DNA from: Anaerovibrio sp.
GTDB lineage: Bacteria; Bacillota; Negativicutes; Selenomonadales; Selenomonadaceae
DNA: 54,744 nt
Assembly (NCBI GenBank): GCA_051866255.1
Contig: JBJDWY010000043.1
Coordinates: forward strand, 1 to 54,744
Direction: 5' to 3'
Program-made: the position numbers and the translations under genes
Part shown: positions 4,895 through 54,674 of the stretch, one piece after another
Layout: the number at the start of each line of letters is the position of its first letter
Numbering within the stretch: the first letter of the stretch is position 1
The notes under the pieces: model-generated
What the model was told of the DNA's origin: nothing
Databases searched by the model: none
What the model saw: the letters and a program-made list of their open reading frames with translations, nothing else

Positions 4895-4897
4895 TGC

Positions 4898-6106: not shown

Positions 6107-6126
6107 ACCATACCCCCGAACAAAAA

Positions 6127-7011: not shown

Positions 7012-7037
7012 ATAAACCTGCTTTCCTCAATGACATC

Positions 7038-9149: not shown

Positions 9150-9177
9150 AATGTCCTACCATTGCACAAAACAGCAC

Positions 9178-10203: not shown

Positions 10204-10236
10204 ACAAACTCCTCCTGAAAACATCTTACGAACTAG

Positions 10237-10263
10237 TTATCGAAATTTTCCGGCATAATATTA
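10237..10263 (-). promoter_or_regulatory. Putative sigma28 (FliA/SigD) promoter of the TPR-to-licC cassette
   Basis: TAAT-N15-TTCGATAA, the same geometry as the sites before flgM and both flagellins. Confidence 0.55.
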
Positions 10264-10265
10264 AC

Positions 10266-12806: not shown

Positions 12807-12810
12807 GCCC

Positions 12811-15339: not shown

Positions 15340-15452
15340 ATTATCTCCCCAGCCCCTGCCTGCAAAAACAAAACTCTAATAAGATTATCGTTGTCTTTCC
15401 CTGTCATCATAAATCATGCCTGATATACAATGCAGAGCAATTTTTCCCACGC

Positions 15453-15478
15453 AAAAGGAGCCGCCCCCAGGCGGCTCC
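15453..15478 (-). terminator. Rho-independent terminator after flagellin
   Basis: 9-bp stem GGAGCCGCC/GGCGGCTCC followed by TTTT on the minus strand. Confidence 0.8.
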
Positions 15479-15529
15479 CAAATTGGAAAACAAAACTCAA
15501 ATTTACTTGTACACAGGTACAGCTACTGA

Positions 15530-16828
15530 TTACTGGAGCAGGCTGAGTGCGTTGGAACTGCTCTGATTTGCCTGTGCCAGCATGGACTGTGCAGCCTGCA
15601 TCAGAACGTTGTTCTTGGTGTACTCGGTCATTTCCTTAGCCATATCAGCATCGCGGATAGTAGACTCTGCAGCAGTTACATTCTCGCTGGCAGTAGTCAA
15701 GTTGGACTGGGTGTACTCGAGACGGGACTCAACAGCACCGATAGTGGTCTGCTGGTCGAGAGCCTTCTGAATAGCGGAATCCAGTACGTTGATAGCTGCA
15801 TTAGCCTTCTCCTGGTTGCCGATGGACAAAGTCTCACCATTCTTGCCCTGGAGGCCGAGAGCCTGTGCCTTCATGTCGGTCAGGCCTACCTTGATGGACT
15901 GGCCTGCCTTGGTGCCTACCTGCATAACGATGGAATTATCCTCGGATGCGTTCTGAGCACGGATAGACTCATCAAAGGCATCCAGTGCTGCATTAGCGGA
16001 CTTGTTTACATTGCCCTTGTTGTCAGTGATATAGATGGTAAAACCAGCTACCTGGCCATCAATACCGCTGGCATTGGATGCAATCGTGATAGCATTCTCA
16101 CCGGATGCGGTGTTAACAGTATTCAGGGAAGCATCAAAACCGATCTGAGAAGTAGCACTGCGTACAGTAACAGCGCCGCTGGTCAGGCTGCTGATAACGC
16201 CAGACAAAGTGTTACTCTTAACCTGGACACTGGAAGTATAGGTCTTACCATCCTTTACATAGGAAACGGTAACAGTATCAGTGGAATGAATATTCAGGCT
16301 GTCACCATTACGAGCCTTCAAAGCAGTCAAGGCATCTGTCTTTGCAGTATCAGTGCTCAAGCTCTGATTGGTCATTGCCGTAGTGGTCTGCTCAACCTTC
16401 TTGTTCTTGGAACCATCTACCAGATACTGGCCGTTGAAGGTTACATTTGCGTTGTCATTGATCTGGTCGATGGACTGATCCATTTCCTTCTGGATAGTGG
16501 CACGGTCAGCATCAGTGTTGGTGTCGTTGGCTGCATTTACTGCCTTCTCCTTCAGGGTCTTCAGGATTTCTACGGTGGAGCTTACTGCACCCTCGGCAAC
16601 CTTCATCATAGAGCCGCCATTCTGGGCATTGCTGTTTGCCTGATCCAGGGAACGGATCTGAACGCGCATCTTCTCGGAGATAGCGTAGCCGGAAGCATCA
16701 TCAGCTGCGCTGTTGATCTTCATGCCGGAAGAAACCTTCTGCAAGCTCTTGGAAAGAGCAGAAGTGTTCTTGTTCAGGGTGTTCAATGTGGTCAGAGCGG
16801 ACATGTTGTTCTTTACTACCATTGCCAT
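15530..16828 (-). CDS. fliC: Flagellin (probably a major filament subunit)
   Basis: N-terminal LSKSLQKVSSGMKINSAADDASG and C-terminal AAESTIRDADMAKEMTEYTKNNVLMQAAQSMLAQANQ. Ser/Thr-rich variable region. Confidence 0.97.
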   Translation of the reverse strand: MAMVVKNNMSALTTLNTLNKNTSALSKSLQKVSSGMKINSAADDASGYAISEKMRVQIRSLDQANSNAQNGGSMMKVAEGAVSSTVEILKTLKEKAVNAANDTNTDADRATIQKEMDQSIDQINDNANVTFNGQYLVDGSKNKKVEQTTTAMTNQSLSTDTAKTDALTALKARNGDSLNIHSTDTVTVSYVKDGKTYTSSVQVKSNTLSGVISSLTSGAVTVRSATSQIGFDASLNTVNTASGENAITIASNASGIDGQVAGFTIYITDNKGNVNKSANAALDAFDESIRAQNASEDNSIVMQVGTKAGQSIKVGLTDMKAQALGLQGKNGETLSIGNQEKANAAINVLDSAIQKALDQQTTIGAVESRLEYTQSNLTTASENVTAAESTIRDADMAKEMTEYTKNNVLMQAAQSMLAQANQSSSNALSLLQ

Positions 16829-16859
16829 GATAAAATTCCTCCTTGGTTGTCAACAAGGT

Positions 16860-16875
16860 GTGTCATCCTTGACAC
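16860..16875 (-). promoter_or_regulatory. Putative CsrA binding hairpin in the flagellin 5' UTR
   Basis: GTGTCA-AGGA-TGACAC stem-loop about 30 nt upstream of the ATG. A second GGA lies in the ribosome-binding site (CAAGGAGG). Confidence 0.65.
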
Positions 16876-16957
16876 TGCCTATGAAATTACTTGCAAATAT
16901 GTGATGCTCCCCCGGTTGCTAGCCACCTGAAAGCATCTCTTGCTGTTGTCACTAATA

Positions 16958-16984
16958 TTATCGTGATATTTTTTTGCCTACTTA
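16958..16984 (-). promoter_or_regulatory. Putative sigma28 promoter of flagellin
   Basis: TAAG-N15-CACGATAA. Confidence 0.65.
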
Positions 16985-17002
16985 AGTGCCGCTCAAAATT
17001 TT

Positions 17003-18121
17003 TTAGTCGCTGACATGAATACTGCCGGAAGGGGACAGATATGCCATCAGCTTCTGTATGTAACCGTCAAAATCCCTGTAATATGACTGCTTTTCACACA
17101 GCAGGATATAATCGTATTCTCCCCACAGGCACTGAAAAATATCCTGCTCCACATCTCGGCAGTGATACGCCTCAAAGCTTCTGCCCGCCAGGGCTGCCTC
17201 CCGGATGTTTTCCGCTATCCCCGTCACCCTGGCATGAGGGAATTTGCCCTGCAAATAGAATAAATCCATGCCGGCGTGGCAGCCCACCACCAGAATCCTG
17301 GCTTCTGTATCTGCCGGTTCCTGCACCTCATCAGTTACCTTGTCCCAGGAGATATACTTCTCTGTAATCTGCCACTTCTCCAGCAGCTTTTTTTGATTTT
17401 CTACATTCAGGTCAAAAAAATACCGTTCCCTGGCGGCTTTTTCCTCATCACTAGCCGCAGCCTTGAAGGATGCACTGCCATAGTGATGAATAAAGGTATC
17501 GCGGCACAGCACCAGCTGATAGCCAGCCAATGTCATCCGCAGGGAATAATCATCATCCTCATAGTTGCCGGGAGTAAACTGCTCATCCAAAAAGCCCACC
17601 CGGCAAAAGGCTGCATTTTTAATGAGATAACAGAAACCCACCAGCTTGGGACGCCGTTCCCATTTTGCCGGGTTGCTGATATTATGCTTCTCCGCAAACA
17701 GCAGCATTTCTTCCAGGCTGCCATACTCGGCAACGACCTGCTGCATGTTCGAGCAGCAGTTGGTCACGCAGCTGACCACACCTATATTTTCAGCACTGTG
17801 CAAAGCCTTTTGCATATTTTCCAGCCACCTGGTGGTCACCACCGTATCGCTGTTCAAAAGCAGAAGATCATTGCCTGCCTCCGCCACAGCCATGCCCTGA
17901 TTGCAGCCTGCCGGAAAGCCTTTATTGACCTGGTTTTCAATCAGCCTGATATCCCCCTGCTGGCGCAGCCACTGCACCGAACCATCCCGGGAGGCGTTAT
18001 CCACCACAATCAGCTCATAGCTGCCAGCCGGAGTCAGCTGCCTGATGCTCTCAATGCACAGCTTGGTATATTCCAAGGTATTATAACTAATGATAACTAT
18101 ACTGGTCCTCTTCATACGCAC
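17003..18121 (-). CDS. GT2 glycosyltransferase with C-terminal methyltransferase-like domain
   Basis: SIVIISYN..VVDNASRDGS..NKGFPAGCNQG..LLLNSD..GNYEDDDYSLR, then RILVVGCHAG (SAM motif-I-like). Confidence 0.82.
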   Translation of the reverse strand: MRMKRTSIVIISYNTLEYTKLCIESIRQLTPAGSYELIVVDNASRDGSVQWLRQQGDIRLIENQVNKGFPAGCNQGMAVAEAGNDLLLLNSDTVVTTRWLENMQKALHSAENIGVVSCVTNCCSNMQQVVAEYGSLEEMLLFAEKHNISNPAKWERRPKLVGFCYLIKNAAFCRVGFLDEQFTPGNYEDDDYSLRMTLAGYQLVLCRDTFIHHYGSASFKAAASDEEKAARERYFFDLNVENQKKLLEKWQITEKYISWDKVTDEVQEPADTEARILVVGCHAGMDLFYLQGKFPHARVTGIAENIREAALAGRSFEAYHCRDVEQDIFQCLWGEYDYILLCEKQSYYRDFDGYIQKLMAYLSPSGSIHVSD

Positions 18122-18128
18122 CCTCCCC

Positions 18129-18797
18129 CTAGGACAACCCCAGCAAATTCTTCACCATGGGCTTGTGTACGACAGTCGTATCAATGAAAATCGAAAGATA
18201 CTGCCTACTGATATTATTCTCACGGCACATCTGCTGCACAGCAGCCACGCTTTCAGCCTGCCGCACATCAAAGTCTATCCTCTGCAACAAATAAGAAAGA
18301 CGTCTTCTAACTTCCGGCTTCAAAAAGCACTGCAGCCAGGCTGATGCCTGCTGAAATAACCCCAGCCTTGCTATATAAAACTCCTGCTGACCATATTCAC
18401 CTTCAAAGCACAGGCGTGCCTCATCATAATTATTAACATGAGCTTCCCTGCCGACACGCTCCTTATCCATACTGCCGGAAAAAACAGCCCGGATGAAGCC
18501 ACCAGGCTTCAGATGCAGCCCCATAGCCTTTAAAAGCGGCCCTGACAGCTCTGCCTGCTCCAAAAGGCCATTGTCCAATATGCAGTCGTAGGTTAGCATA
18601 TTATCTAAATCTGTTTCCTGCAGGAAAGCAGCAAAATCCATATTCATCAGATAATCCACCTGTACAGCAGGCATAAACTCCCGCAGCATATCCGCCAGCC
18701 TGTCATCCTGCCAGCTGATCAGCACCCGTGCCCTTTTCGGCAGAATTATGCCTTCCAGCAAAAACTGTCTTTTTACTTCCTCAAAACTCATCATCAA
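18129..18797 (-). CDS. Hypothetical protein, degenerate methyltransferase-like
   Basis: YDCILDNGLLE...HLKPGG resembles class I methyltransferase motifs. In operon context between GT genes. Confidence 0.55.
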   Translation of the reverse strand: MMMSFEEVKRQFLLEGIILPKRARVLISWQDDRLADMLREFMPAVQVDYLMNMDFAAFLQETDLDNMLTYDCILDNGLLEQAELSGPLLKAMGLHLKPGGFIRAVFSGSMDKERVGREAHVNNYDEARLCFEGEYGQQEFYIARLGLFQQASAWLQCFLKPEVRRRLSYLLQRIDFDVRQAESVAAVQQMCRENNISRQYLSIFIDTTVVHKPMVKNLLGLS

Positions 18798-18801
18798 AAC
18801 C

Positions 18802-19500
18802 TCAATATTTATAGTTGGCTTTAAAAATCCTCATATTTTCATTGTAATCCTCGCCAATAATTTTTCTGTTGCAGGCATGCAGCACCCAGGGTTCTTCCTG
18901 CCTGGCCAGCACCACCTTGTAACCATGATTGATAAATTCCCTGCTTTGGGAAATATCATAAAAATGCCAGCCATGAAACAAATCCGTCCGCCAGGGCAAG
19001 TCGCAGCTGGTTGCCATAAAAATCCCGTCGATGGCACCAGCCTCGGCAAAGCTCCCCCCCTCGATGACTCCATACACATCTTTGTGTACTTCCTCAAAGG
19101 ATTTTTTATTGTAAGCCATGCCGCAGCGGGTGTCACTGGTCCACCAGATGGGCTTATCCTGAGGCAAATCCACCGCCCCTGCCAGCCCAATCATGCCAAT
19201 AGCCCTGTCACTCCTGAAAATATCCAGCACATCCTGTAAAATATGCTTGTTGACGATAAATACATCCTGATGGATATATATCTTGTACCTGGCATCTGAG
19301 GCCTCCATGGCCTGCTGATAACCTGCCGTCATGGAAGGTGCCCCCCGCACTGCCAGCAAATCCACAGACATTCCCTCCGGCACCGCCAGCTGCTCCAGAT
19401 ACACTACAGACTCTTCATAAAGAAACTCATCATTTACACAGGCAATGAAACAAAATTTACTATCATCCAGCTTTCTTTCCTGCCCTTTTGCCACTCGCAC
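18802..19500 (-). CDS. Glycosyltransferase-like protein (Glyco_tranf_2_5 / StrF-like)
   Basis: FCFIACVNDE..APSMTAGYQ..YKIYIHQDV..IDGIFMAT..WRTDLFHGWHFYDISQS. Confidence 0.8.
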   Translation of the reverse strand: MRVAKGQERKLDDSKFCFIACVNDEFLYEESVVYLEQLAVPEGMSVDLLAVRGAPSMTAGYQQAMEASDARYKIYIHQDVFIVNKHILQDVLDIFRSDRAIGMIGLAGAVDLPQDKPIWWTSDTRCGMAYNKKSFEEVHKDVYGVIEGGSFAEAGAIDGIFMATSCDLPWRTDLFHGWHFYDISQSREFINHGYKVVLARQEEPWVLHACNRKIIGEDYNENMRIFKANYKY

Positions 19501-19580: not shown

Positions 19581-19952
19581 TTAATACTCCCTGCTAAAAA
19601 GACCGGCACTGGCACCGTAACCTGTCACATCATAATTGCGCACCTGCGCATTGTTGCGGCGGGATTTGTTCAGCCATGTACGCGCCTTGTACATAATCTG
19701 CATATCCATAGGCTTGATCTGCTCCCGCATGGCCATGCACTCCGGCGTGCTGCTAAAATCCCGCTGGGCTTCTGGCACGGCCTTCATCCTGTCCAGCAGC
19801 TCCTGCCTCTGGTCCACCAGCTGCAAAAACAAATCTATCTCCTCTGCCTTGATGAATTTCAGCAATTCATAAGTCAGGGCCAGATATTTCTCCCACAGCT
19901 GCTTCTCTGTATACGCAGGCTGCCCTTTCCTGACCACAGGAGGCTTCTCCAT
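19581..19952 (-). CDS. fliT: Flagellar chaperone FliT
   Basis: Helical 123-aa protein directly after fliS, with an L...RQELL pattern. Confidence 0.7.
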   Translation of the reverse strand: MEKPPVVRKGQPAYTEKQLWEKYLALTYELLKFIKAEEIDLFLQLVDQRQELLDRMKAVPEAQRDFSSTPECMAMREQIKPMDMQIMYKARTWLNKSRRNNAQVRNYDVTGYGASAGLFSREY

Positions 19953-20338
19953 CAGGATGCCCCCCTTTCCTTCCTGGCTATCTTCATAGCCTCAGCCCAG
20001 GCATCCCTGAGTTCCCTGATAATATCTATGCACTCCGTTACCTTCTCAGGCTTGCTGCGCATATTTGCCTCAACCAGGCCATTATAAACATAATCATACA
20101 AAGGCATCAGCTGCTTAGAAATATCATACTCCATTTTCAACGTCGCCTGAAACTCAAGAATAATCCGCTGTGCCTTCTGCAGAGCCGTATTGCACTGCTC
20201 CCACTTCTTTGCCTCCATGGCCTCCAGCCCTTCCTTCATAAAACGAAGGGCTCCATTGTAAAGCATAAGGGTAAGAGCTTCCGGCGTAGCGGTCATAACC
20301 TGCTGCCTCTTATATGCTTCTGCTGCATTATTTACCAT
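19952..20338 (-). CDS. fliS: Flagellin chaperone FliS
   Basis: AYKRQQVMTATPEALTLMLYNGALRF..KAQRII..LYDY..LRDAW. Confidence 0.95.
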   Translation of the reverse strand: MVNNAAEAYKRQQVMTATPEALTLMLYNGALRFMKEGLEAMEAKKWEQCNTALQKAQRIILEFQATLKMEYDISKQLMPLYDYVYNGLVEANMRSKPEKVTECIDIIRELRDAWAEAMKIARKERGAS

Positions 20339-20367
20339 ACATCTACCTCATTTTCAGATTCAGATTG

Positions 20368-23300
20368 TCAGCCTGTAATATAGCTAAGCTGCGTACCCAG
20401 CTTGGACAGGGCAACTTCCATCGCATCATACTTATCGTACAGCTTATTTTCATAGGATTTCATCAGCGTCTTGAAATTATCCATCCTGGTCTGCATGTTG
20501 GTAATCAGCTTGCCCAGATAGCTCTGGTCATCAGCCGATGTGCTGACGCCGCCATAGCTTTCCAGTGTACTCATGTGAGTTCCCATCAGATTGTACAGGC
20601 GATTAGCCACACCGGTATTTCTGTAGTCGCTTTTTTGCTCGTAGGAGGAAAGCTTTTTATTACTGGTGCTGCCTGCAATATAGGAACTATCCTGGTCCGA
20701 AGCAAACAGCTGATATACGCAGTCCGGGTCATCTGCCAATGCAGTGCGCAGCTTGTCCTCATCCAAGGTAATATGCCCCTTGGTATTTGTGGTGGTAATA
20801 CCGATGGCAGACAAGGAATTGTACTTGCTATCTACTGCGTCCACCGGCGTGTACAGGGCTTCACGCATATCGCTGACAATGGAGCGGATATTGGAATCAT
20901 GGTACAGGAGGCCTGACTTTGCCTTCTCATTCCACTGCTTGACCTGCGTCTCTGTCATTTCAGCTTCCTGCTCCTTGGTCAGCGGCTTGTAGTCAGAGTA
21001 CCTTTCCTGGGACAGCTTGTCATTAAGCGAGTCCAGCAATGTGTTGTAAGTTTCCACAAACTTCTTCACATTATCCACGATGGTATCAGTGTCCTGATTT
21101 ACCGTTACTGTGGCAGTCTTGCCTACCTCCGTCGGGCTGTTAAAGGTGTAGGTAACACCAGCCACTGTCTTTACATTGGTATCCAGATCGTAGTTCTTGC
21201 CATCAATATTTACATTTGCATTGGAACCGGCTGTACTCTGATACTTATTCGCCACATCCGCCGGTGACTGCGCCAGGCCCAGATTGCTGGCCAGTGTACT
21301 GCCCAGGGCATCATTGCCGGTGAGCTCGGCATGACCATTGAGATTGGATAAAGTAAACTTATTAGTGGCTGTGTCATAAGTTGCCGTCACACTGATACCT
21401 TCGCTGGAAGCCGTATCGTTTATCCTATCCTTCAAGGTAGACAAATCAGTACTTCTGTTGGTAGTCAGCTGCTTGTCAGTCCCCAGATTGGACAAGTCGA
21501 AAATATCAGACAAAGTAAAGGATATAGCAGCCGATTTATTGGAGTCACCGACACTCATGGAGAAAATCTCCTGCGCAGCCAGCTGGTCCCTTGTGCCGGT
21601 ATAAGTAGTTTCCTGTCCCTTGCTGTCCTTCAGGGTAACAGTATAATTGCCGCTGGCATCCTGCGAACTAGAAACAGCCGTAACACCAAGAATATCCTTT
21701 AGATAATTATCCGTGCTGTTGGCGTTCACCCTGGAAATTCCCTTGGATACTACACCGGAGGACACCGGACTATCCTGCAGATTCAGATTAGTTGTCAAGG
21801 TGCTTATATTGCTGCCCGTAAGCGAAGCTGTTCCATTCAGATTATACAAAGTAAAGCCATTATTTACATCATAGGCAGCTTTGGCATTATTCCCGTCAGC
21901 ATCAGATGCTAGATTAATCCTGCCTGCCATTTCAGATAAGCCAACAGCATTATTTGCGGTAGCTGTAGCAGTTTTACCACTATCACTAATACTACCGCTT
22001 AATCCTCCGTTATGCGCACTTAAATAGCCACCATTGTTGTAAAAATTAGAAAAATCAACAAAATCTCCCATTGTGAAATCTATAGTAGATGTGTTTTCCC
22101 CATCTCCCACCGCAATAGAAGTTACCTTTGTCTGAGCCGCCTTGCCGGATGTACCAACAAAATCATTAACTGAACCTGTATACGTAGCAACAGCTTTGCC
22201 AGCACTATCAAATATCTCCATCGTGATAGTATAACCGTTATTTGATGCAGTTAATTTATTAGTATAACCAAAAAGCGTTGCTAAATTTTCTGCCTTTGTA
22301 CCACTATCTGCCTGCAGGAAGGTGGCACTGGAGCTGCTCTCCAAATTCAAAGCACTTACCATCTGGGCACCGATTTTATCACCAGCAGCCCCAGTCAATT
22401 CCGCCTTGCCGGAGACATTCACCATCGAAAAGCTATCATTTGCTTCGTCGTAGGTGGCTGTAATGCCCATGCCATTATCAGATGCCACCTTATTTATCTT
22501 ATCTGCCAGGTCAGAAAGGGTGCCTGTGGACTGCAAATTGCCGGTCTTGTCCAGATTGAACAATTCGCCATAAGTAAAATCCACATCAGCAGTTTTGCTT
22601 CCATCAGACAAAGTCATGCCATAGGCCTTGGCCGCTTTCAGATTATCCAGGGTATCAGTGATAGTTACATCCACACCATCCTGCCCCTTCACATTTAGCG
22701 TATACTGACCGCCACCTGCATCAGTCAGTGTGGCTGTCAGCCCCAGCACATCTTTAATGGAAGTACTCTGCGCCAGCGTCTTGGCACCTGTCGCCGTCTT
22801 GACGGTTTTCATAGTGTCCTCAGACTGGAAGGTTATCGGGCCGCTTAGAGCATTAGTCGGGTCTGCTGCATTGGCATCATAAACACCCAGCTTCAGGGAA
22901 TTCAAAAGCTGCACGGAATCCGCATTGTTGCCCACAATACCGATAATATTATCCTTGCCGCTGGTCTTGTTGTACAGGCTAAAAGCATCATTGGCAGAGT
23001 CATAGCTGCCCTGAATATTTGCCCCGGTCTTGGATACGGCACTGGCAAAATCGTACAAGGTCTTGCCTTCCTGAATTAAATCATCATAGGTATATGTCAG
23101 GGTGTACGTATCATCGCTGTCAGCCCTGTCACGGAAATCAATGGAAATAGCCGTATCACTGCCGTTGACAGTCTTAGTGGAACCATCTGCCAAGGTCAGC
23201 GTATACTTGTATGTGCCATCGCCATTATCAGTGGTGGAAACACTCTTGTACAGCACATCGCTCAGATTGTTGCTGTTTGGCTTCAGAGTACTCTGCCTTT

Positions 23301-23655
23301 CAATCTTTTCCCCATCAGCCGTCAGCATGTAGGCATTACTTGCCACCTTGCTGACTGTTACCTTGTGGCTCATGGCTGCTGCCGCACCATTAGCCGTAGC
23401 CGTTACCGCACTGGTATCGGAACTGGTTGCCTTCATTGCACTCATGTTGGACTGCAACTTGAAAGCAGACATGGCATCCTTAAATTCCTTGGTCTGGTTA
23501 TATACATCAACATAAGCTTCCTTCATCCAGGTCTGCCACATCTGATTTTGATACATCTTGTCATACTGGCTCTGCTTGCTCATCATGCCCATCTTTACCA
23601 GGGACTCAATGTCAAGGCCTGAGCCGGACAAACCATATATGCCGTTTACGCCCAT
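20368..23655 (-). CDS. fliD: Flagellar filament cap protein FliD, unusually long (1095 aa)
   Basis: GLSGSGLDIESLV N-terminus. C-terminal VKKFVETYN..YKPLT..W.EKAKSGLL..LSAIGI..YDAMEVALSKL. Confidence 0.93.
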   Translation of the reverse strand: MGVNGIYGLSGSGLDIESLVKMGMMSKQSQYDKMYQNQMWQTWMKEAYVDVYNQTKEFKDAMSAFKLQSNMSAMKATSSDTSAVTATANGAAAAMSHKVTVSKVASNAYMLTADGEKIERQSTLKPNSNNLSDVLYKSVSTTDNGDGTYKYTLTLADGSTKTVNGSDTAISIDFRDRADSDDTYTLTYTYDDLIQEGKTLYDFASAVSKTGANIQGSYDSANDAFSLYNKTSGKDNIIGIVGNNADSVQLLNSLKLGVYDANAADPTNALSGPITFQSEDTMKTVKTATGAKTLAQSTSIKDVLGLTATLTDAGGGQYTLNVKGQDGVDVTITDTLDNLKAAKAYGMTLSDGSKTADVDFTYGELFNLDKTGNLQSTGTLSDLADKINKVASDNGMGITATYDEANDSFSMVNVSGKAELTGAAGDKIGAQMVSALNLESSSSATFLQADSGTKAENLATLFGYTNKLTASNNGYTITMEIFDSAGKAVATYTGSVNDFVGTSGKAAQTKVTSIAVGDGENTSTIDFTMGDFVDFSNFYNNGGYLSAHNGGLSGSISDSGKTATATANNAVGLSEMAGRINLASDADGNNAKAAYDVNNGFTLYNLNGTASLTGSNISTLTTNLNLQDSPVSSGVVSKGISRVNANSTDNYLKDILGVTAVSSSQDASGNYTVTLKDSKGQETTYTGTRDQLAAQEIFSMSVGDSNKSAAISFTLSDIFDLSNLGTDKQLTTNRSTDLSTLKDRINDTASSEGISVTATYDTATNKFTLSNLNGHAELTGNDALGSTLASNLGLAQSPADVANKYQSTAGSNANVNIDGKNYDLDTNVKTVAGVTYTFNSPTEVGKTATVTVNQDTDTIVDNVKKFVETYNTLLDSLNDKLSQERYSDYKPLTKEQEAEMTETQVKQWNEKAKSGLLYHDSNIRSIVSDMREALYTPVDAVDSKYNSLSAIGITTTNTKGHITLDEDKLRTALADDPDCVYQLFASDQDSSYIAGSTSNKKLSSYEQKSDYRNTGVANRLYNLMGTHMSTLESYGGVSTSADDQSYLGKLITNMQTRMDNFKTLMKSYENKLYDKYDAMEVALSKLGTQLSYITG
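21280..23265 (-). repeat. Four degenerate internal protein repeats in FliD
   Basis: Units begin LSDVLY / IKDVLG / LATLFG / LKDILG and end (G/A)xYD..N..F(S/T)(L/M).N..G. Boundaries are approximate. Confidence 0.75.
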
Positions 23656-46608: not shown

Positions 46609-46624
46609 GTAAAAATTGCACAAA

Positions 46625-47404
46625 TTACAAATGATATGAAATAACCGGGCTGCCATCCTCCAGATGAAGAATTCTCGCATGTACGCCATACAGTTCAAAA
46701 ATAAAATCCTCCGTCAAAAGCACGTCTGGAACCCCTTCCCTGATAATCCTCCCATCCTTTATGGCAATAAGCCTATCACAGTAAGCAGCAGCAATATTTA
46801 AATCATGGATTGCCGCAATCACTGTCAGTTTCATATTCCGCACGCTTTCCATAATCTGTAGCTGATACCTGATGTCAAGATGGTTAGTAGGCTCATCCAA
46901 AATCAGACAGGGAGCCTCCTGAGTCAAAGCCCGTGCCAGCATCACCCTCTGCTGCTCTCCCCCTGACAAACTGGCAAAGGAATGTCCGGCAAAATCTGCC
47001 ATTCCTGTAAATTCAAGATATCTACGAGCCTTTTCATAGTCATCCCCCGTATACCTGTCCAAAATCCTTTTGTAAGGACTCCGCCCCATCAGCACAACAT
47101 CCAGCACCTTGAAATCAAAACTGGCATGATGGTGCTGTGCCAGCACTGCCTGCCGTTTGGCAGACTCCTGCACCGGCAAAGCAAAAAGACTGTCCCCGCC
47201 AAGAAAAATCTCACCGTCTTCCGGCTTCAGCACCCTGTAGATACATTTCAGCAGGGTACTTTTGCCGCTGCCATTGGGGCCGATAATACCTACCATTTCC
47301 TTATTTTGGGCAGCCATGCTAATGCTATGCAGTATCTGCTTATCCCCCAGATACTTGTCCAGCCCATCCACCCGAATATCCATATCAGCACTCCCTCCTG
47401 CCAC
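46625..47404 (-). CDS. Cobalamin/Fe-siderophore ABC transporter ATPase (BtuD-like)
   Basis: GPNGSGKST, LSGGEQQR, LDEPTNHLD and HDLN.A..YCD. Confidence 0.9.
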   Translation of the reverse strand: MAGGSADMDIRVDGLDKYLGDKQILHSISMAAQNKEMVGIIGPNGSGKSTLLKCIYRVLKPEDGEIFLGGDSLFALPVQESAKRQAVLAQHHHASFDFKVLDVVLMGRSPYKRILDRYTGDDYEKARRYLEFTGMADFAGHSFASLSGGEQQRVMLARALTQEAPCLILDEPTNHLDIRYQLQIMESVRNMKLTVIAAIHDLNIAAAYCDRLIAIKDGRIIREGVPDVLLTEDFIFELYGVHARILHLEDGSPVISYHL

Positions 47405-48453
47405 TAATCAGCCTTGCTGCCAAAGCTGTAATTACGCTTCACAATCAAATAGACAAATACCGGCGCACCTATTAAGGATATAATCAAGCCTACCGGAATT
47501 TCCGTCCGTTCCAGCAGGCTCCGCGCCAGTGCATCCGCCCCCACCATGAGAATTGCCCCGGACAAGGCAGCTATCGGCAACAGCCTGCGATGGGATGATC
47601 CTATAAACAGCCTCGCTATATGCGGAATAATCAGTCCCACGAAGCCAATCATGCCGGCAGCATAAACCAAGAAGCCGATAATCAGAGCACTGACTACCAG
47701 ATATATCTGACGGAAGACCTTCAGATCACGCCCCAGGGTAATAGCCTCGGCATCTCCCAGCAGCATCAAATCCAATACGGAGCTCTGAGTCCAGAAAAAT
47801 ATTGTCCCCAGAACCGTCACCAGGAAAATCATCCCCATGTCCTCCCACTTTGCCCCGGCGCAGCTTCCCATCAGCTGAAAAACCACTGACTGTGCCCCGT
47901 CCTTGTTATTGGCAAAATAAAAGATAAAGCTTGATACGGACGAGCAGGCCGTAGATAATGCCATACCTGCCAGCAAAAGACGCACTGAGTCTGCCGTCCC
48001 CCGGATATTTGCCACTAAAAGTACCAGCACCGATACCCCAAAGGCACCTAGGAACGCACAAATCCCTACAAAATTGCTGCCCAGCCACACACCGATACCC
48101 AGCAGTACAGCAGCAGAGGTTCCAAGGGAAGCCCCGGAGGATACCCCCAGAATATACGGATCTGCCAGGGGATTTCTGACAATGGCCTGCATAATCACGC
48201 CGCAAACTGCCAGCCCCATACCTGCACAGACCGCCAGCAAAAGCCGTGGCAAACGCAACAGCCAGACAATATCATGAGGTGCTCCCTGCAAGGGAGCCAT
48301 AATAGGCAGCGGACTGCACAAGCCATCCACAATTGTCTGATAAATTACGGCATAGCTCAGCTTCGCCGAACCAAGCCCCAGTGAAATAAATAATTCCACG
48401 CATAGACACAAAAACAAAAAAAGCAACACCATGCCGGTTCGACAGTACTTCAT
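47404..48453 (-). CDS. FecCD/BtuC family permease
   Basis: LRLPR, QAIVRNPLADPYILGVSSGA and GFVGLIIPHIAR. Confidence 0.92.
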   Translation of the reverse strand: MKYCRTGMVLLFLFLCLCVELFISLGLGSAKLSYAVIYQTIVDGLCSPLPIMAPLQGAPHDIVWLLRLPRLLLAVCAGMGLAVCGVIMQAIVRNPLADPYILGVSSGASLGTSAAVLLGIGVWLGSNFVGICAFLGAFGVSVLVLLVANIRGTADSVRLLLAGMALSTACSSVSSFIFYFANNKDGAQSVVFQLMGSCAGAKWEDMGMIFLVTVLGTIFFWTQSSVLDLMLLGDAEAITLGRDLKVFRQIYLVVSALIIGFLVYAAGMIGFVGLIIPHIARLFIGSSHRRLLPIAALSGAILMVGADALARSLLERTEIPVGLIISLIGAPVFVYLIVKRNYSFGSKAD

Positions 48454-49484
48454 TCCGGCAGCCTCCCTTCGTACAAATCAGGATAAAGCCCTCCTGCCAT
48501 CCGGCAAATTCCATCATAAGTTCTAGTCGCACTACCGTACACCATATATAACGGAATCACATATATGCGCCTGCCGCGAATGGCGGCCACTCCCTGCAGG
48601 GCAGGATTTGCCAGCATATCTGCCGCTATTTCATCCGCATACCGGTACATGGACTCGCTGACTACCAGGAAAATTACCTCCGGATCTGCCTCAATAAGCT
48701 GCTCATAACTGGCAGAGCTGCCCAATGCCACCAGTTCCCCGTTGACATGGCGCAGAATATCACCAGCCAGGGAATTTTCACCATAAACCAAAAACTGCAT
48801 CCCCTGCTTCTCCAGAATTGCCGTGCGTGGCTTTGGCTGTCCCCTGGTATTGGACTGCACAAAATCGATTTCCTGGCGCATACGGGCCACCAGGCCTTCT
48901 GCCTGTGCCTCCCGGCCAAAAATACGCCCAAAATCAAGGATATAATTATACTCATCCTCTATGCGGCGCACCTGTCCCCTGCCAATGGAGGAATATGGCA
49001 TATAGGTGCGTATGCCCCGTCCCTGCCAGAATTCTGTCGTTTTCGTCACTCGCTCCGTAAAGGTGGAGGCCCAGCCTGCAATCAGCTCAGGTTCCAGCAT
49101 GAGCATATTTTCCACTCCCGGCATCTCCATCTGTCGCACAGGAATCTTTCTGTACGCCTCCCTGTATTCAGGCCGCAGGCACTCCTCAAAGGGAACACCT
49201 ACAGCGGCCACAATTCTGTCACCTGCCCCCAGCGCCAAGATGGTTTCCACATTATTCTGCCAGATAGCAACCACCCTGCGAGGCGGAGCGGCAAACACCT
49301 CCGCTACTTTTTCACCTTGGGAATTATAGTTGATTATTTCCACCCCTTTGTCTGAGGCTTCCTCTGGCATATCCTGTTCCCCGCCCCCGGCAAAAAGGCA
49401 GCCGGAGCAGACAAATACGAGCACCAAAAGCAGGCAGATAAAAATCTGCCTGCCGCCATCATATATTCTATTTAGAAAGTGCAT
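48450..49484 (-). CDS. Class III substrate-binding protein (BtuF-like)
   Basis: Hydrophobic N-terminus, PRRVVA, E.ILALG.GDRIV and EQLIEADPEVI. Confidence 0.85.
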   Translation of the reverse strand: MHFLNRIYDGGRQIFICLLLVLVFVCSGCLFAGGGEQDMPEEASDKGVEIINYNSQGEKVAEVFAAPPRRVVAIWQNNVETILALGAGDRIVAAVGVPFEECLRPEYREAYRKIPVRQMEMPGVENMLMLEPELIAGWASTFTERVTKTTEFWQGRGIRTYMPYSSIGRGQVRRIEDEYNYILDFGRIFGREAQAEGLVARMRQEIDFVQSNTRGQPKPRTAILEKQGMQFLVYGENSLAGDILRHVNGELVALGSSASYEQLIEADPEVIFLVVSESMYRYADEIAADMLANPALQGVAAIRGRRIYVIPLYMVYGSATRTYDGICRMAGGLYPDLYEGRLPE

Positions 49485-51710
49485 TTTGCCCCCAACATGA
49501 AGCTGCGCCCTGCCTCCGGCAAAGCACCCGGCCCATAAGATGCAACTGCCTTTGTCTCATAGGCAGTATTCAGCAAATTATATGCATTCAGATAGATCTT
49601 CCACTGCTTGGACAAAGTATAGCTCAGAGCCATATCCAGCGTACCGAAGCTACTGCTAGTAAAGTACCTAGTATCATTGCCGGAATAGATAGTATACGAC
49701 AAATCCCCAAACCAGCGGTCCTTGTCATAGGATACATTCAGCCTGTAGGTATTGCGCGGACGGAAAGAATTAATCAGCGCATCAGTGGTTGTTCCATCTG
49801 GATTCAAAATCACATTCTTAGCAGAGAAATTTTCTTTTACCCAGCTATAGGAAGCCCCAAATTTCCACACATCATCAAAGTCATGAGTATATCCCACATT
49901 CATGGAACGCTTAATCCGAGAGGCATTTACTGCCCTTGTCTGCCACTTGCTGGTAAGTTCATTGTAAATACTGTACCTGCCGATAGCATTGTCCATATCA
50001 GTCAGCCCAAAGTTGATTTCACCATAATCCCGCGGACTGAATTGGCGGCTGATGCCTGCGTTGTAGCTCCAGCCTGTCTCATCCTCCAGCACATCATTGG
50101 CGTATTGGCGGCTGCGGTCAAGCCCCGTTACCGGCTTGAAAATCTGGCTGGCAGAAACATATGCATTCGTAGCATCGTCAAAGTCATAGCTGGAATACAG
50201 GGAAGCCGTCAGCCTGCTGCTTCCCGGTACATTATTGCCATTGTAGGTACCATTAGCATAATGAGTATAAATCAAGCCTGGTGTAAAGGCAAATTTCTTG
50301 CTGATCTGGATTTTATCCTGCAAGTACAAATTCCAGAGATTGCGCTCCGCATCATATCTATCGGATGAATCCCAGCCATCATAGCTGTCCTGCCTGTATT
50401 CAAAGCCGCCTGTCAGGCTGTGCCTACCAATATGCCGGGCAAGCTGCACCGCGCCGCCCACTGAACGCTCAATGTCCGTATGAGCATTAACTTTATCCTT
50501 GGCTGCAGCAATAAATTCATGCAAATTTGTCCACGGTACATTCCAGATACTGGAATAATCCTTCATATCATAGCGTGTGTAATTGCTGTACAGGCGCACA
50601 TAGCTTTCCGCATCCTCGTCTGTTTTGTCAAACACATACTTTGCAGATACGTTGTTTGTCAGGGTTTCGCCATAGGAGCCCAGTATGGCATCATACAAGA
50701 ATATATTGCGATAGCCTGGATAGCTGCTGCTCAAGCCTGTATAGCGATGATATTTACTAGAAGCAGGGTCATTATCAATCGCAGCCATCGTGCCATTGTA
50801 AAAATCTTCCATATAACGATAGTTCGGTGCCGTTATCGGATAATGGGCTTTTTCATAGGCGTGGGTGAAATTCAGGGAAATGCTGCGCTTGTCATCCAGC
50901 TGCTTCTTGATGTTGATGGCAGCATTGTCCTTGTCGTAGCTGGTATTTCGGAATTTCTCTGTATTGCCGGTGTAATCATCCTTGTATTTGGTATCACCGC
51001 TCTGCTCGTGGCTTAAAGAGAAGGAATACTCCAGCGTCCCTTCATCAGCAGTGCCGGTATGAGTCAGTGCCATACGGTGATGATCCCAAGAACCTGTTGC
51101 CAGATCCAGGGTAGTGCGCGGTTCCTTGCTGCCCCGCCTGGTGGTGATGGAAATAACGCCACCTGCCGCATTGGCACCATAAATAGCCGCACCGCTTCCC
51201 TTGATGACCTCTATCTGCTCTATATTGTCAATCCCCGGCAGGGTGGCCAGATTGACACTTGCCTTGCTTCCGGCAAATGCACTGGCATCATTGCTTATTC
51301 TGTTGCCATCTACCACGACCACGATGTTGTTTTCACCATTGATGGATAATTCACTGCTAAAACTATCGTAGCCATACTCACCGCCATGATAGCCCGGGGT
51401 GGCAATGCGTACACCTGGCACACGCTTAAGTGCCTCAGCTACATCAGCGTAATTGTGCTTTTCAATATCTTCCCTGGTAATAACATTCACATCACCGCCG
51501 GTAGTATAGGGGTTGCGGACGATATTGCCCCCCCCGAACAATTGTATCATCAAAAGTATATACATCCAGATTTTCCTCCTGCTGCGCCTCGGAAGCATTT
51601 TCCCTGACCTCTGCTTCCTCCGCCCAAGCATGAGAGCTCCCCATCAGCATACATGCCACTGTCAATGACAGCATCTTCCTGCGCTTTCCACTAACCATTT
51701 TCATCAGCAT
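49472..51710 (-). pseudogene. TonB-dependent outer-membrane receptor (BtuB-like), split by one extra base at a G8 tract
   Basis: Signal-peptide ORF 51492-51710 and plug/barrel ORF 49472-51631 (VITREDIE..ALKRVPGV, IEQIEVIKGSGAAIYGANAAGGVISI, C-terminal F) differ in frame by 1 nt at C8 51528-51535. Could be phase variation or a sequencing error. Confidence 0.8.
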
Positions 51711-51744
51711 AAAGCTCCTTCCTGTACAAAAAACAAACCATTTT

Positions 51745-52023
51745 CTACAACCCCAGCATTTCCCTGGCCCTTTTTTTCATCCTTGTCCTGTCATGCTCCC
51801 TGCACTGCTGACAATGAGCCAAATCCTGCCTATCCCGCGATCCACAGGTCCGGCAATAAAAATCATGGGCAAATTCAGTCACCAGATCGCTTATTTTCTG
51901 TTCCTCCCACAAATGCCTCACTGCCAGGCGCAACCTTGCCATGTCCGAAATGCTGTCCTCCTGGAGAAAACTCTCCAATACCTGATGATCCCCTTGCTGC
52001 ATCACCCTCACCTCAACATTCAC
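51745..52023 (-). CDS. Small hypothetical protein with two CxxC motifs
   Basis: CRTC...CQQC. First ORF after the riboswitch, on the same strand as the operon. Confidence 0.5.
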   Translation of the reverse strand: MNVEVRVMQQGDHQVLESFLQEDSISDMARLRLAVRHLWEEQKISDLVTEFAHDFYCRTCGSRDRQDLAHCQQCREHDRTRMKKRAREMLGL

Positions 52024-52154
52024 CTTTGATACACTTTTTCACCTTGCACCGGCCTGGGAAGCTTTTCCCGGAAACTAAAAAAGCCAATCACGAGCAAATA
52101 CGCAATCGGCTGGACACAGGCAAAAACGCAGGAGCATACTAGCTCTGTCGCAAC

Positions 52155-52188
52155 AAAAAAGGAGTCCTTCCACAAAAAGAAAGACTCC
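52155..52188 (-). terminator. Intrinsic terminator of the riboswitch expression platform
   Basis: GGAGTCTTTC/GAAGGACTCC followed by T6. Confidence 0.75.
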
Positions 52189-52257
52189 CCCTGTATCGTC
52201 AATCTCCTTCCCATCGCTCGTGGGTACAGCAGGGATCACTCCCTGCCAACGGTGATT

Positions 52258-52440
52258 CATGATCGGCAGTTCTCCTGGCTTAGGTTCATCATATCAACGC
52301 GCCTTCCCGGGACGTGCCCAGTGACCTAACTAATGCGTCATACTCCCCTTACAGTGGCGGGACCGCTCCGGACTCACACCGGTATTCCCTATTAAACCTT
52401 GCAACAAAAGCACTTCGCTGCAAAGGTACCGCTCACGATA
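52258..52440 (-). ncRNA. Cobalamin (B12) riboswitch
   Basis: AATAGGGAATACCGGTG..AGTCCGG.GCGGTCCCGCCACTGT..GTCACTG..GGGAAGG..AGCCAGGAGAACTGCC (B12 box). Confidence 0.93.
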
Positions 52441-52465
52441 TATTAAATTTCAAATCCGATTTTAT

Positions 52466-52493
52466 ACTATACCAAAATGCATAATGGTGTCAA
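52466..52493 (-). promoter_or_regulatory. Putative sigmaA promoter of the B12 operon
   Basis: TTGACA-N16-TATAGT with extended -10 TG. Confidence 0.6.
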
Positions 52494-52516
52494 GAACATT
52501 TAACAATAATTCTCCC

Positions 52517-54238
52517 TTACTGCAGCAGGCTCAGAACCCCGGAGCTGTTCTGGTTTGCCTGAGCCAGCATAGACTGCGCCGCCTGCAGCAGCACATTGTT
52601 CTTGGTGTATTCTGTCATTTCCTTGGCCATATCCGCATCACGGATGACAGACTCTGCACTGACGGTGTTTTCGCTGGCGGTAGTCAGATTTGCCTGAGTA
52701 TATTTCAGCCTGCTTTCAATGGCGCCTATGTTGGTCTGCTGGTCAAGCACCTTTTCAATGGCATTGTCAAGGATGGTCATTGCCTGCTTTGCCTTGACAC
52801 GGGTACCCACGCTGAGATTTGTACCATTGTCCGCCTTCAGCCCCAGTCCTTCGGCACTGATGCTGCCAAAGGCGGAATTGATTACCTGATTGGCCCTGGT
52901 GCCAACCTGGAATTTCAGCCCTTCACCCTTCTGGAAATCAGGCCACTTGACGGTCAGGCCGTTTATAAGGGTTGAGTTGGCACTCGGATAATACCAGAAT
53001 TTGGTATTCAGGCCTTCCAGTACAGTGCCTTTATCATCACGCACCTCTCCCTGATTGGCATCCGCGCCAAGAATGGAGCCCACATCAGGGTTATCCAGGT
53101 CTATGCCGCATTTATCCAGCAGAAAGGCCTTTGTATTCCCTGCTGCCGTCTTAGCCCCATTGAAAGAATCTATCATATTCTGCAATGTACTAAACCTGCC
53201 GCCAGTAGCGGACTGCACCGCCTTATCCACATTTCCTTCATACTGTACCAGCCCCTGCATAAAGGATTGTACACTGCCACTGCCGCATTGCTTATTCATA
53301 TAGCGCAAAAAAGCATAACCACCGGCATAAGCATCCTCACCGGACAAGCCCGTTGATAAAGCTGCTAAATTTTCCAGCCTTGACCTTCTGTTATCATCTA
53401 TGCCGTGAGTAACCTCTGCAAAGCCTTCTACAATGAATAAAGGCACATTATCCATATTTTTGACATTAGCCGCCATCACAGCATGTGTAAGCTCATGGGC
53501 AATAACACGATCAAGATACTGACTGCCAGTTGATGGTGAAGAACCATTAGGATCACTCTCATCCATATCATCATAATAATGCATGTTAACAGTCAAAGTA
53601 AGCTTATCCGTCACACCGCCAACAGCTCTGTGAGTTACATACGCCAAACGGTCATTAGCTCCTTCATCCTTCAACACTACTTCCATTTCGTTGACACTGG
53701 CCCTGCCATCGGTGAAGTTAATACCATAGGCATCCTGTATCATTTCAAAGCTTGCCTTGAGCCATTCTGAATTTAATGCCTTGATGATGGTATCCTGCAC
53801 GGATTTGCTGATATCTGCCCCGCCATCAAAAATTCTTATGCCGTTAAAGGTGACATTGGCATTATCTGAAATCTGGTCAATAGCCTGGTCCATTTCCTTT
53901 TGGATGGTTGCCCTGTCAATGTCTGTATTGGTATCATTGGCAGCATTAATCGCTTTTTCCTTTAACGTTTTCAATATCTCTACTGTAGATGAGGCCGCTC
54001 CCTCTGCCGTCTGCAGCAGGCTGCCTGCATTCTGGGCATTGGCATTTGCCTGATCCAGTGCCCTGATCTGCACCCGCATTTTTTCAGATATGGAAAAACC
54101 GGAAGCATCATCAGCAGCACTGTTCAGCTTCATCCCCGAAGCAACCTTTTTCAAGCTTTTGGACAGTGCCTTGCTGTTTTTATTCATTTTATTCAATGTC
54201 TGCTTTGCAGTCATATTATTTTTTACTACCATTGCCAT
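52517..54238 (-). CDS. Flagellin with inserted gluzincin metallopeptidase domain (flagellinolysin type)
   Basis: Flagellin N- and C-termini like the 15530-16828 gene. Central DRVIAHELTH-x18-EGFAE motif. Confidence 0.9.
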   Translation of the reverse strand: MAMVVKNNMTAKQTLNKMNKNSKALSKSLKKVASGMKLNSAADDASGFSISEKMRVQIRALDQANANAQNAGSLLQTAEGAASSTVEILKTLKEKAINAANDTNTDIDRATIQKEMDQAIDQISDNANVTFNGIRIFDGGADISKSVQDTIIKALNSEWLKASFEMIQDAYGINFTDGRASVNEMEVVLKDEGANDRLAYVTHRAVGGVTDKLTLTVNMHYYDDMDESDPNGSSPSTGSQYLDRVIAHELTHAVMAANVKNMDNVPLFIVEGFAEVTHGIDDNRRSRLENLAALSTGLSGEDAYAGGYAFLRYMNKQCGSGSVQSFMQGLVQYEGNVDKAVQSATGGRFSTLQNMIDSFNGAKTAAGNTKAFLLDKCGIDLDNPDVGSILGADANQGEVRDDKGTVLEGLNTKFWYYPSANSTLINGLTVKWPDFQKGEGLKFQVGTRANQVINSAFGSISAEGLGLKADNGTNLSVGTRVKAKQAMTILDNAIEKVLDQQTNIGAIESRLKYTQANLTTASENTVSAESVIRDADMAKEMTEYTKNNVLLQAAQSMLAQANQNSSGVLSLLQ

Positions 54239-54313: not shown

Positions 54314-54340
54314 TTATCGGAAACTCTCTCCCTATTGTTA
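54314..54340 (-). promoter_or_regulatory. Putative sigma28 promoter of the flagellinolysin gene
   Basis: TAAC-N15-TCCGATAA. Confidence 0.6.
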
Positions 54341-54342
54341 AA

Positions 54343-54674
54343 TTTCAGTTTGTCGTAGTGCTTGATCGTTACTTTGTGCACATACTGATGATGTAGTTTG
54401 ATAATTCGTGAACTCTGTTCAGACATTTAAAAGGGACAGGTAGCGGCAGTACCCATAGAAAACTCGCTCTCGCTCTTAGCACAGCCTCGCGCTTCTAAGC
54501 TCCTGCGTCGCTTACGCTCGCACTCGCTAAGAAGCGAGGCTGCACTCAAGGTTTTCTTTGGGTACATGCCGCACCTGTCCCTCTTTGTGTCTGAACAGAT
54601 ATGCACATAGTTATCAACTATACTCTGCTGTACGCTACTAAGGTAATCAATCTAACTTTACGAAAAAGCTGAAA
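54343..54674 (-). repeat. Intergenic rod-shaped palindromic element, copy B (core 54414-54599)
   Basis: TCTGTTCAGACA/TGTCTGAACAGA, a 23-bp stem with two bulges, further inner and outer imperfect stems, and an 18-nt motif identical to copy A in reverse orientation. Confidence 0.82.

What the first reader, a model, noticed from the sequence alone, without database searches (positions are those of the whole stretch)
52517..54238. Proteolytic flagellin (flagellinolysin) in a Selenomonadaceae-like genome
Seen: an insert of about 300 aa (approximately 52930-53820) with HELTH (53483-53497) and EGFAE (53414-53428), forming an intact HExxH-x18-E gluzincin zinc site. The gene has its own sigma28-like promoter and lies 36 kb from the ordinary flagellin. 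The insert looks AT-richer than the termini. Known: flagellins with such domains assemble proteolytically active filaments in Clostridium haemolyticum. Inference: a mixed filament that is both glycosylated and enzymatically active, with a laterally acquired domain grafted onto a native flagellin.
Basis: partly seen in the sequence, partly recalled or inferred. Interest (0 to 1): 0.7.

Follow-up and report, generated by a model that had tools for sequence, protein, structure and literature searches.

The report
Protease-bearing flagellin in an Anaerovibrio-like genome
This gut bacterium has an intact gene for a flagellum subunit with a zinc-protease domain that likely makes the filament cut proteins; that is a known and already annotated family, but many relatives carry the same domain with its two halves in swapped order, a form I did not find described.

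Summary
ORF 52517-54238(-), 573 aa, is a complete flagellin with a ~296-aa insert carrying HELTH-x18-E-x2-A at the stated coordinates. It passes NCBI's flagellinolysin model (290.5 bits, cut-off 205). A ~96% identical protein family is already named flagellinolysin in Anaerovibrio slackiae. The scan met an ordinary flagellinolysin before in another genome (e1-4209315).

The insert is under purifying selection, a sigma28-like promoter is conserved, and the predicted fold matches M9/M30/M1 gluzincins. Recent lateral grafting is not supported: the locus is conserved beside lysA in the genus, 64 of 251 family genomes score over the cut-off, and the AT excess is weak. Glycosylation and filament incorporation are untested.

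What is new lies in the relatives. Within this family the domain also occurs circularly permuted (B-A instead of A-B), inside flagellins and in many standalone proteins, often with RTX-type repeats. Coevolution shows one interlocked domain in both orders. Trees nest the permuted and standalone forms inside canonical flagellinolysins. My searches found no description of this.

Verdict: the gene is a new member of a known kind; the permuted offshoot is the worthwhile lead.

The parts
52517..54238 (-). flagellinolysin gene, 573 aa, canonical order N-A-B-C, no stop or frameshift
   Evidence: (NF033876 290.5 bits, cut-off 205)
53819..54238 (-). N-terminal D0/D1 flagellin region (residues 1-140)
   Evidence: Pfam PF00669; 80% identical over 139 aa to the window's ordinary flagellin
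53285..53812 (-). protease segment A (residues 143-318): helix, three strands, HExxH helix, glutamate helix, YAGGY helix
   Evidence: predicted secondary structure; structural match to collagenases, lugdulysin and M1 peptidases
53483..53497 (-). HELTH: zinc ligands H248 and H252, general base E249
   Evidence: sequence; invariant H, E, H in 52 of 52 aligned proteins
53414..53428 (-). EGFAE: third zinc ligand E271 and basement alanine A274
   Evidence: sequence; E, G and A kept in 68 of 68 homologues P0002-P0069; spacing E+3=A as for Glu262/Ala265 of FliA(H)
52937..53275 (-). protease segment B (residues 322-434): helices that finish the catalytic domain and a terminal hairpin coupled to segment A; this segment stands in front of A in the permuted relatives
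52520..52930 (-). C-terminal D1/D0 flagellin region (residues 437-573)
   Evidence: Pfam PF00700; 67% identical over 131 aa to the ordinary flagellin
54314..54341 (-). sigma28-like promoter element TTAA-N16-TCCGATAA, about 76 nt before the start codon
   Evidence: a consensus match with conservation, not a mapped start site
15530..16828 (-). ordinary flagellin (432 aa), inferred main filament partner, among glycosyltransferase genes
19952..23655 (-). fliS chaperone and fliD cap genes, the inferred export and assembly partners
   Evidence: Pfam PF02561, PF07195, PF02465

Best explanation
The gene encodes an intact canonical flagellinolysin, a flagellin that likely co-assembles with the ordinary flagellins and would display an active zinc protease on the filament surface. 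Shown: complete D0/D1 termini, an intact HExxH-E-A gluzincin site, family membership, purifying selection, a conserved sigma28-like element. Inferred steps: transcription with the late flagellar genes; export unfolded through the flagellar type III channel; polymerisation under the FliD cap as a minor subunit; refolding of the insert, with H248, H252 and E271 holding zinc and E249 activating water; cleavage of extracellular peptides next to the swimming cell. The most likely use in a gut fermenter is releasing peptides and clearing protein or mucus in its path; cutting rival flagella is the next candidate. History: the domain entered the family once, long ago, in the A-B order; one sub-lineage then permuted it to B-A, and B-A copies left the flagellin frame to become standalone proteins with RTX-type tails.
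For: NF033876 290.5 bits over a cut-off of 205, and the insert alone 211.3. The cluster of a 96% identical protein holds members named flagellinolysin of Anaerovibrio slackiae. AlphaFold model pLDDT 84.6: termini match flagellar filaments (Z 21.5, rmsd 3.2, 262 aligned); the insert matches ColT (Z 11.9, rmsd 4.0, 222 aligned), lugdulysin (Z 11.6, 218) and ColG (Z 11.3, 223). dN/dS is 0.07-0.18 in the insert against three same-genus orthologues. The promoter pattern lies upstream of 16 of 45 canonical homologues, against 0.2 expected from shuffles and 0 of 45 coding controls. Both characterised enzymes have HExxH at the same place in the chain (233-237 and 249-253). In C. haemolyticum the protein is the second most abundant filament subunit and filaments cleave peptides (PMC5595980). 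History.
Against: No activity, filament or expression data exist for this protein. RNA-library contigs of related strains cover the gene but also its neighbours, and cannot show transcription. Pfam does not recognise the insert (best E=0.014) and PDB sequence searches find no true relative. Z of 11-12 with 14% identity shows a fold, not a function. The calcium site of FliA(H) (Asp206) could not be mapped. The genome has nine other flagellin-like genes, so the share of this subunit in the filament is unknown. 29 of 45 canonical homologues had no exact match to the promoter pattern, among them the two closest, which carry single-base variants.
Confidence: 0.72

Rival explanations
1. The protein is an active protease that uses the flagellar export channel but is released to the medium instead of staying in the filament.
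For: The gene lies outside the main flagellar cluster (36 kb away). The same domain works without a filament frame in many relatives (124 of the best 150 representatives are standalone B-A proteins). PMC7643111 raises release as a possibility.
Against: The termini are complete and strongly conserved (94-99% identity, dN/dS 0.01-0.06 against three orthologues), more than export alone would need (inference). The C. haemolyticum protein is in filaments.
Confidence: 0.15
2. The insert keeps the zinc site but serves mainly as a binding or structural surface domain (adhesion, antigenic cover) with little proteolysis.
For: Flagellin middles vary for surface reasons; one same-genus genome (L037) carries a different allele at the same locus, 44-46% identical in the insert while lysA is 94% identical.
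Against: The general base, the three ligands and the basement alanine are kept in 68 of 68 homologues; both family members tested so far are active.
Confidence: 0.08
3. The domain was grafted recently by lateral transfer onto a native flagellin of this lineage.
For: Third-position GC is lower in the insert (p=0.007). The termini group with native flagellins. Allele replacement at this locus has happened in the genus (L037).
Against: Overall GC does not differ (p=0.29) and the ordinary flagellin has the same dip. Orthologues sit beside lysA in L026, L027, L028 and L037. Synonymous distances in insert and termini are similar for L026-L028. The insert falls in a family-wide clade.
Confidence: 0.05

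Closest known systems
Flagellinolysin FliA(H)/FlaMP of Clostridium haemolyticum (MEROPS M101; NCBIfam NF033876; PMC5595980)
   Same: Flagellin termini around a ~300-aa gluzincin domain; HExxH early in the insert, a downstream glutamate, alanine three residues later; coexists with ordinary flagellin.
   Different: 18 residues between the second histidine and the glutamate here, 24 in FliA(H) (His237, Glu262). The gene here is outside the flagellar cluster. No direct alignment was made: the FliA(H) sequence was not among my hits.
HgrFlaMP of Hylemonella gracilis (PMC7643111)
   Same: Similar length (565 aa), HExxH at 249-253, gene among non-flagellar genes; active, zinc- and calcium-dependent.
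   Different: Betaproteobacterium from fresh water; not aligned directly.
Flagellinolysin of Anaerovibrio slackiae (WP_154405717.1) and Selenomonas sp. AE3005, NCBI annotations
   Same: Same architecture; a 96% identical cluster representative for the former, 54% for the latter.
   Different: Annotation only; I found no experimental study.
M9 clostridial collagenase peptidase domains (4ar8, 2y3u), M30 lugdulysin (7bb8), M1 aminopeptidases
   Same: Gluzincin fold over model residues 145-383; zinc ligands and basement alanine as described in PMC3711286.
   Different: 14-17% identity; no double-glycine before the predicted edge strand (RLAYVTH); no activator or collagen-binding domains.

Membership tests
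Flagellinolysin (M101 / NF033876) | Flagellin N- and C-terminal helical domains flanking a central insert | tested here: met
   PF00669 5-140, PF00700 487-572; filament-like fold Z 21.5
Flagellinolysin (M101 / NF033876) | Score over the curated family cut-off | tested here: met
   290.5 bits vs 205, profile positions 1-384 of 384
Flagellinolysin (M101 / NF033876) | HExxH with general base, distal glutamate ligand, basement alanine | tested here: met
   H248, E249, H252, E271, A274; features as defined in PMC5595980
Flagellinolysin (M101 / NF033876) | No collagenase double-glycine motif before the edge strand | tested here: met
   RLAYVTH precedes and forms the predicted strand 199-206; assigning it as the edge strand is my inference
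Flagellinolysin (M101 / NF033876) | Canonical segment order A-B | tested here: met
   N-A-B-C by two independent sets of HMMs; same order in 119 of 120 outside homologues, the other lacks B
Flagellinolysin (M101 / NF033876) | Calcium-binding aspartate (Asp206 of FliA(H)) | tested here: inconclusive
   Several conserved aspartates precede HExxH but the FliA(H) sequence was not at hand to map the residue
Flagellinolysin (M101 / NF033876) | EDTA-sensitive proteolysis | not testable with these tools
   needs an assay
Flagellinolysin (M101 / NF033876) | Incorporation into flagellar filaments | not testable with these tools
   needs filament proteomics or immunogold
M9 collagenase | Double-glycine motif, activator domain and collagen-recruiting domains | tested here: not met
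   None found; Pfam gives no M9 hit for the insert at E<=10; fold similarity only
Glycosylated flagellin | Glycan attached to this subunit | not testable with these tools
   Glycosyltransferase genes flank the ordinary flagellin; Ser+Thr is 13.5% in this insert and 27.5% in the ordinary flagellin's middle

The most novel reading that the evidence does not exclude
The window gene is the canonical anchor of a family-wide radiation in which the flagellinolysin protease domain was circularly permuted inside a flagellin (B-A), is kept side by side with the canonical form in the same genomes, and then escaped the flagellum to found a very large family of secreted, RTX-tailed zinc proteases in Selenomonadaceae, many copies per genome in one genus. 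This would be a natural circular permutation of an active gluzincin and a case of an enzyme family born from a flagellin insert, the reverse of the published direction of transfer.
Probability: 0.65. Interest if true: 0.62.

Novelty: new member of a known kind. Interest (0 to 1): 0.42.

Why it matters
The gene itself adds one more member to a family described in 2017 and labelled automatically by NCBI. Two things raise its value. First, the biological role of proteolytic flagella is an open question (PMC7643111 says so), and the domain, in one form or another, is in 151 of 251 genomes of this gut family against 3 of 392 genomes of other families in a phylum draw; cultured commensals with the gene offer a place to test it. 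Second, relatives carry a circularly permuted version, sometimes in tandem with the canonical gene (L053). Permuted flagellins pass the same NCBI model (8 of 9 tested), so the label hides them. They allow a natural comparison of two chain topologies of one protease, and point to an unannotated secreted protease family in rumen and gut bacteria.

Tried and rejected
1) Recent lateral graft: rejected. 2) Long ORFs (1165 and 1116 aa) as A-B-A-B intermediates: they are two flagellins fused, N-A-B-C-N-C. Tandem B-A-B-A proteins do exist (5 of 150) but are standalone and show no intermediate inside a flagellin. 3) Standalone RTX-tailed proteins as donors of the insert: AU test rejects a tree with them outside the flagellin-borne clade (p=0.002). 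4) Idea that both orders are permutants of the collagenase order, hairpin first: not settled. The permuted model had pLDDT 57.3 and three fold searches returned only flagellins and helical bundles; a B-A profile found nothing relevant in the PDB. 5) PDB sequence hits to tissue factor (E>1) and TAL repeats (summed weak repeats) are artefacts. 6) Expression: 10 RNA-labelled runs hold 5-12% of the words; four were laid, contigs only, covering the gene and its neighbours alike: no evidence either way. 7) A joint structure prediction of segments A and B was not obtained; coevolution answers the same question. 8) Two papers recalled on Selenomonas flagellin glycosylation were not held, so that point is recalled, not read. 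9) The promoter pattern's genome-wide count (5 hits, 4.1 expected) is no evidence by itself, since the pattern came from four of those sites; the tests on other genomes are the evidence. 10) No type I secretion genes were seen next to 8 standalone loci by eye on ORF starts; not scanned against families.

Full report
Observation. The ORF at 52517-54238(-) encodes 573 residues without a break. Pfam finds the flagellin N-terminal region at 5-140 and the C-terminal region at 487-572. HELTH is at 53483-53497 and EGFAE at 53414-53428, exactly as reported: H248, E249, H252, then E271 after 18 residues and A274. The ordinary flagellin starts 35,689 bp away. The composition claim is weak: GC 0.458 in the insert, 0.485 in the termini (p=0.29). 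Third-position GC is lower in the insert (0.453 vs 0.567, p=0.007), but the ordinary flagellin shows the same dip, and the insert lies at the 12th-16th percentile of 1,107 long genes.

Identity. The protein scores 290.5 bits on NCBIfam NF033876 flagellinolysin (cut-off 205), over the whole profile. Its exact sequence is not in the protein collection, but the cluster of a 96% identical protein holds members named flagellinolysin of Anaerovibrio slackiae, and the best named locus is A. slackiae at 94% over the insert. The genome is therefore most likely an Anaerovibrio close to that species (inference). It has 10 flagellin-like genes and only this one has HExxH. The AlphaFold model (pLDDT 84.6) matches flagellar filaments with its termini (best Z 21.5) and gluzincins with its insert: ColT Z 11.9, lugdulysin Z 11.6, ColG Z 11.3, M1 peptidases Z 10-11, mostly over residues 145-383.

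Signs of function. Against three same-genus orthologues (L026, L027, L028) dN/dS is 0.07-0.18 in the insert and 0.01-0.06 in the termini. The zinc ligands, general base and basement alanine are kept in 68 of 68 homologues P0002-P0069. A TTAA-N16-TCCGATAA element at 54314-54341 resembles the sigma28 consensus (consensus recalled). A pattern drawn from this genome's flagellin promoters occurs upstream of 16 of 45 canonical, 5 of 16 permuted and 4 of 26 plain flagellin genes elsewhere, against 0.0-0.2 in shuffles and none in coding controls. The two closest orthologues miss the exact pattern by one base but keep both boxes and the spacing. Expression could not be shown.

History of the gene. It lies next to lysA in L026, L027, L028 and L037; the 5.9-kb cobalamin uptake block between them in the window is absent there and in contigs of two runs. 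Matches over the family cut-off occur in 64 of 251 genomes of the family, and some form of the domain in 151 of 251. Outside it is rarer: 14 of 235 genomes of other families in a class draw, 3 of 392 in a phylum draw. In a tree of the termini (105 rows, quick IQ-TREE) the protein groups with 14 canonical flagellinolysins (97) inside a clade (98) that holds the genome's ordinary flagellins; plain, canonical and permuted flagellins are interleaved, which suggests exchange of middles or homogenised termini. So a graft onto a native flagellin is plausible, but it is old and family-wide. One result points to ongoing exchange: L037 has lysA 94% identical yet an insert only 44-46% identical, while L028 has lysA 91% and insert 73-75%.

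The permuted relatives. The insert consists of segment A (143-318, with the zinc site) and segment B (322-434). Among the 121 proteins (the query and the best 120 of 121 hits), 66 are N-A-B-C, 7 are flagellins with B before A, 46 are non-flagellin B-A proteins and 2 have A only. HMMs built only from distant outside flagellinolysins give the same orders in the 8 proteins tested. Both flagellin forms stand in tandem in S. ruminantium ATCC 12561 (L053) and at separate loci in A. lipolyticus DSM 3074 (L056, L092). A profile search of 1.84 billion representatives gave 1,397 hits at E<=0.001; of the best 150, 124 are standalone B-A proteins, 122 of them with an intact HExxH..E motif and 86 with at least one GGxGxD repeat; 5 are B-A-B-A; one is a standalone A-B protein. 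One genus has the domain in 63 of 65 genomes, up to the 9 copies that the tool scored. Among the best 120 of 996 outside homologues (Bacillus, Geobacter, Vogesella, Desulfosporosinus and others), 119 are A-B and none B-A. Full-length B-A matches in the class draw came only from this family (the outside matches were not cut out and inspected).

Permutation, not domain shuffling. The structural match to gluzincins runs across the A/B boundary (145-383). Mean-field coevolution on 422 sequences (effective number 277) ranks A-B pairs at the top: A309-F359 (1), L160-V430 (2), E184-K431 (4), R312-A394 (5), N231-K403 (6). Run separately on 225 A-B and 197 B-A sequences, 6 of the top 50 inter-segment pairs coincide, against 0.13 expected. 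The two segments thus form one domain, with the terminal hairpin coupled to the first strand and first helix, and the start and end of the insert lie close together, which is what a flagellin insert needs and what allows permutation (inference).

Direction. A tree of reordered A+B (66 rows kept from 100 after a redundancy filter, 34 dropped by hand to save run time; LG+G4) gives the family-type domains as one clade (100/100) against 8 outside rows. Canonical forms branch off at the basal well-supported nodes (99/81, 100/91, 99/96); all B-A forms fall in a nested group (85/97) with three canonical rows and the standalone A-B protein (one search shows the same with 100 rows). A single origin of B-A is not rejected (p=0.49); placing the standalone proteins outside the flagellin-borne forms is rejected (p=0.002). 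Caveats: the tests were chosen after a first tree was seen, the model has no mixture, the root branch is long, and standalone proteins appear in three places in the tree, so several escapes are possible. Secretion of the standalone proteins by a type I system is inferred from the repeats only.

Mechanism. Most likely (0.72) the protein is made with the late flagellar genes, exported through the flagellar channel, built into the filament as a minor subunit and cuts extracellular peptides with its zinc site, as shown for C. haemolyticum, where it is the second most abundant filament protein and activity is lost with EDTA or Glu234Ala (PMC5595980). Release without polymerisation (0.15) and a non-catalytic surface role (0.08) remain. 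Glycosylation is possible, given the glycosyltransferase genes at 914-19500, but nothing ties them to this subunit.

Literature. Read: PMC5595980, parts 1-3 of 6 and part 2 of the one supplementary file held, the peer-review file; its species table and supplementary figures were not available, so I cannot say whether Selenomonadaceae or permuted members were among its 86 sequences. PMC7643111, parts 1-2 of 9 and a passage search with no hit for 'permut', 'Selenomonas', 'standalone' or 'RTX'; its supplements were not seen. Passage searches only: PMC13552848 (no flagellin or zincin), PMC7018530, PMC4481668, PMC3711286. Library searches (listings only) showed no paper on permuted or standalone flagellinolysin domains; most subscription journals are not covered. 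Earlier notes of this scan report an ordinary flagellinolysin in another genome and the same domain in phage proteins, none a permutation; these notes are unchecked.

Verdict. The window gene is a correct but ordinary identification: a new member of a known kind, nearly identical to an annotated protein. The interest comes from its family: a circularly permuted variant and a derived standalone protease family, directly visible in sequence, with activity and direction of descent inferred. Interest 0.42.

Noticed in passing
L053:642-4338, L056, L092, L021:5496-9294; proteins P0052, P0059, P0070-P0120, P0156-P0298: Circularly permuted (B-A) flagellinolysins and a large family of standalone B-A zinc proteases, many with RTX-type repeats, some in proteins of 1,000-4,000 aa; up to nine or more copies per genome in one genus.
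   Followed up: yes
window 46617-52516: A 5.9-kb block (cobalamin riboswitch 52248-52448, TonB-dependent receptor, FecCD-type ABC transporter) is inserted between the flagellinolysin gene and lysA; four same-genus genomes and contigs of two runs lack it. Its sigma70-like promoter starts 24 nt after the flagellinolysin stop.
   Followed up: partly
G000:C48:14254-16112 and G000:C171:18863-21035; L126: Two flagellin genes lack their first ~68 codons and begin at the same junction sequence. The C48 copy sits head to head with two ORFs that look like serine recombinases by motif (recalled, not scanned). The same junction with a short flagellin remnant is in 1 of 24 same-genus genomes. Possibly elements that integrate into flagellin genes and swap their 3' part.
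   Followed up: partly
L037:5416-7329: A different flagellinolysin allele (insert 44-46% identical) occupies the same lysA-adjacent locus in a genome whose flanking genes are 88-91% identical in DNA: allele replacement.
   Followed up: partly
window 54346-54660: A ~315-bp repeat with long inverted segments just upstream of the promoter; 94 blastn hits in the genome, many full length at 93-97%. REP- or MITE-like, not classified.
   Followed up: partly
L023:6009-9503, L024:4300-7647, P0162: Open frames in which a flagellinolysin is fused head to tail with a second complete flagellin (N-A-B-C-N-C, about 1,100 aa).
   Followed up: no
L081:2839-4902 (P0172): A standalone protein with the canonical A-B order and a glycine-rich tail on a contig labelled Desulfovibrio; it falls among the family's sequences in the tree, so transfer or mis-binning.
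   Followed up: partly
L104, L115, L117, P0071, P0170: Flagellins of about 1,000 aa with the permuted protease plus further middle domains, one resembling the cysteine-containing middle of this genome's C172 and C173 flagellins by eye.
   Followed up: no
window 914-19500: Glycan locus around the ordinary flagellin: GT41, two LicD, GT9/TibC-like, GT2-TPR proteins, a sulfatase-fold protein. FliD is unusually long (1,095 aa).
   Followed up: no
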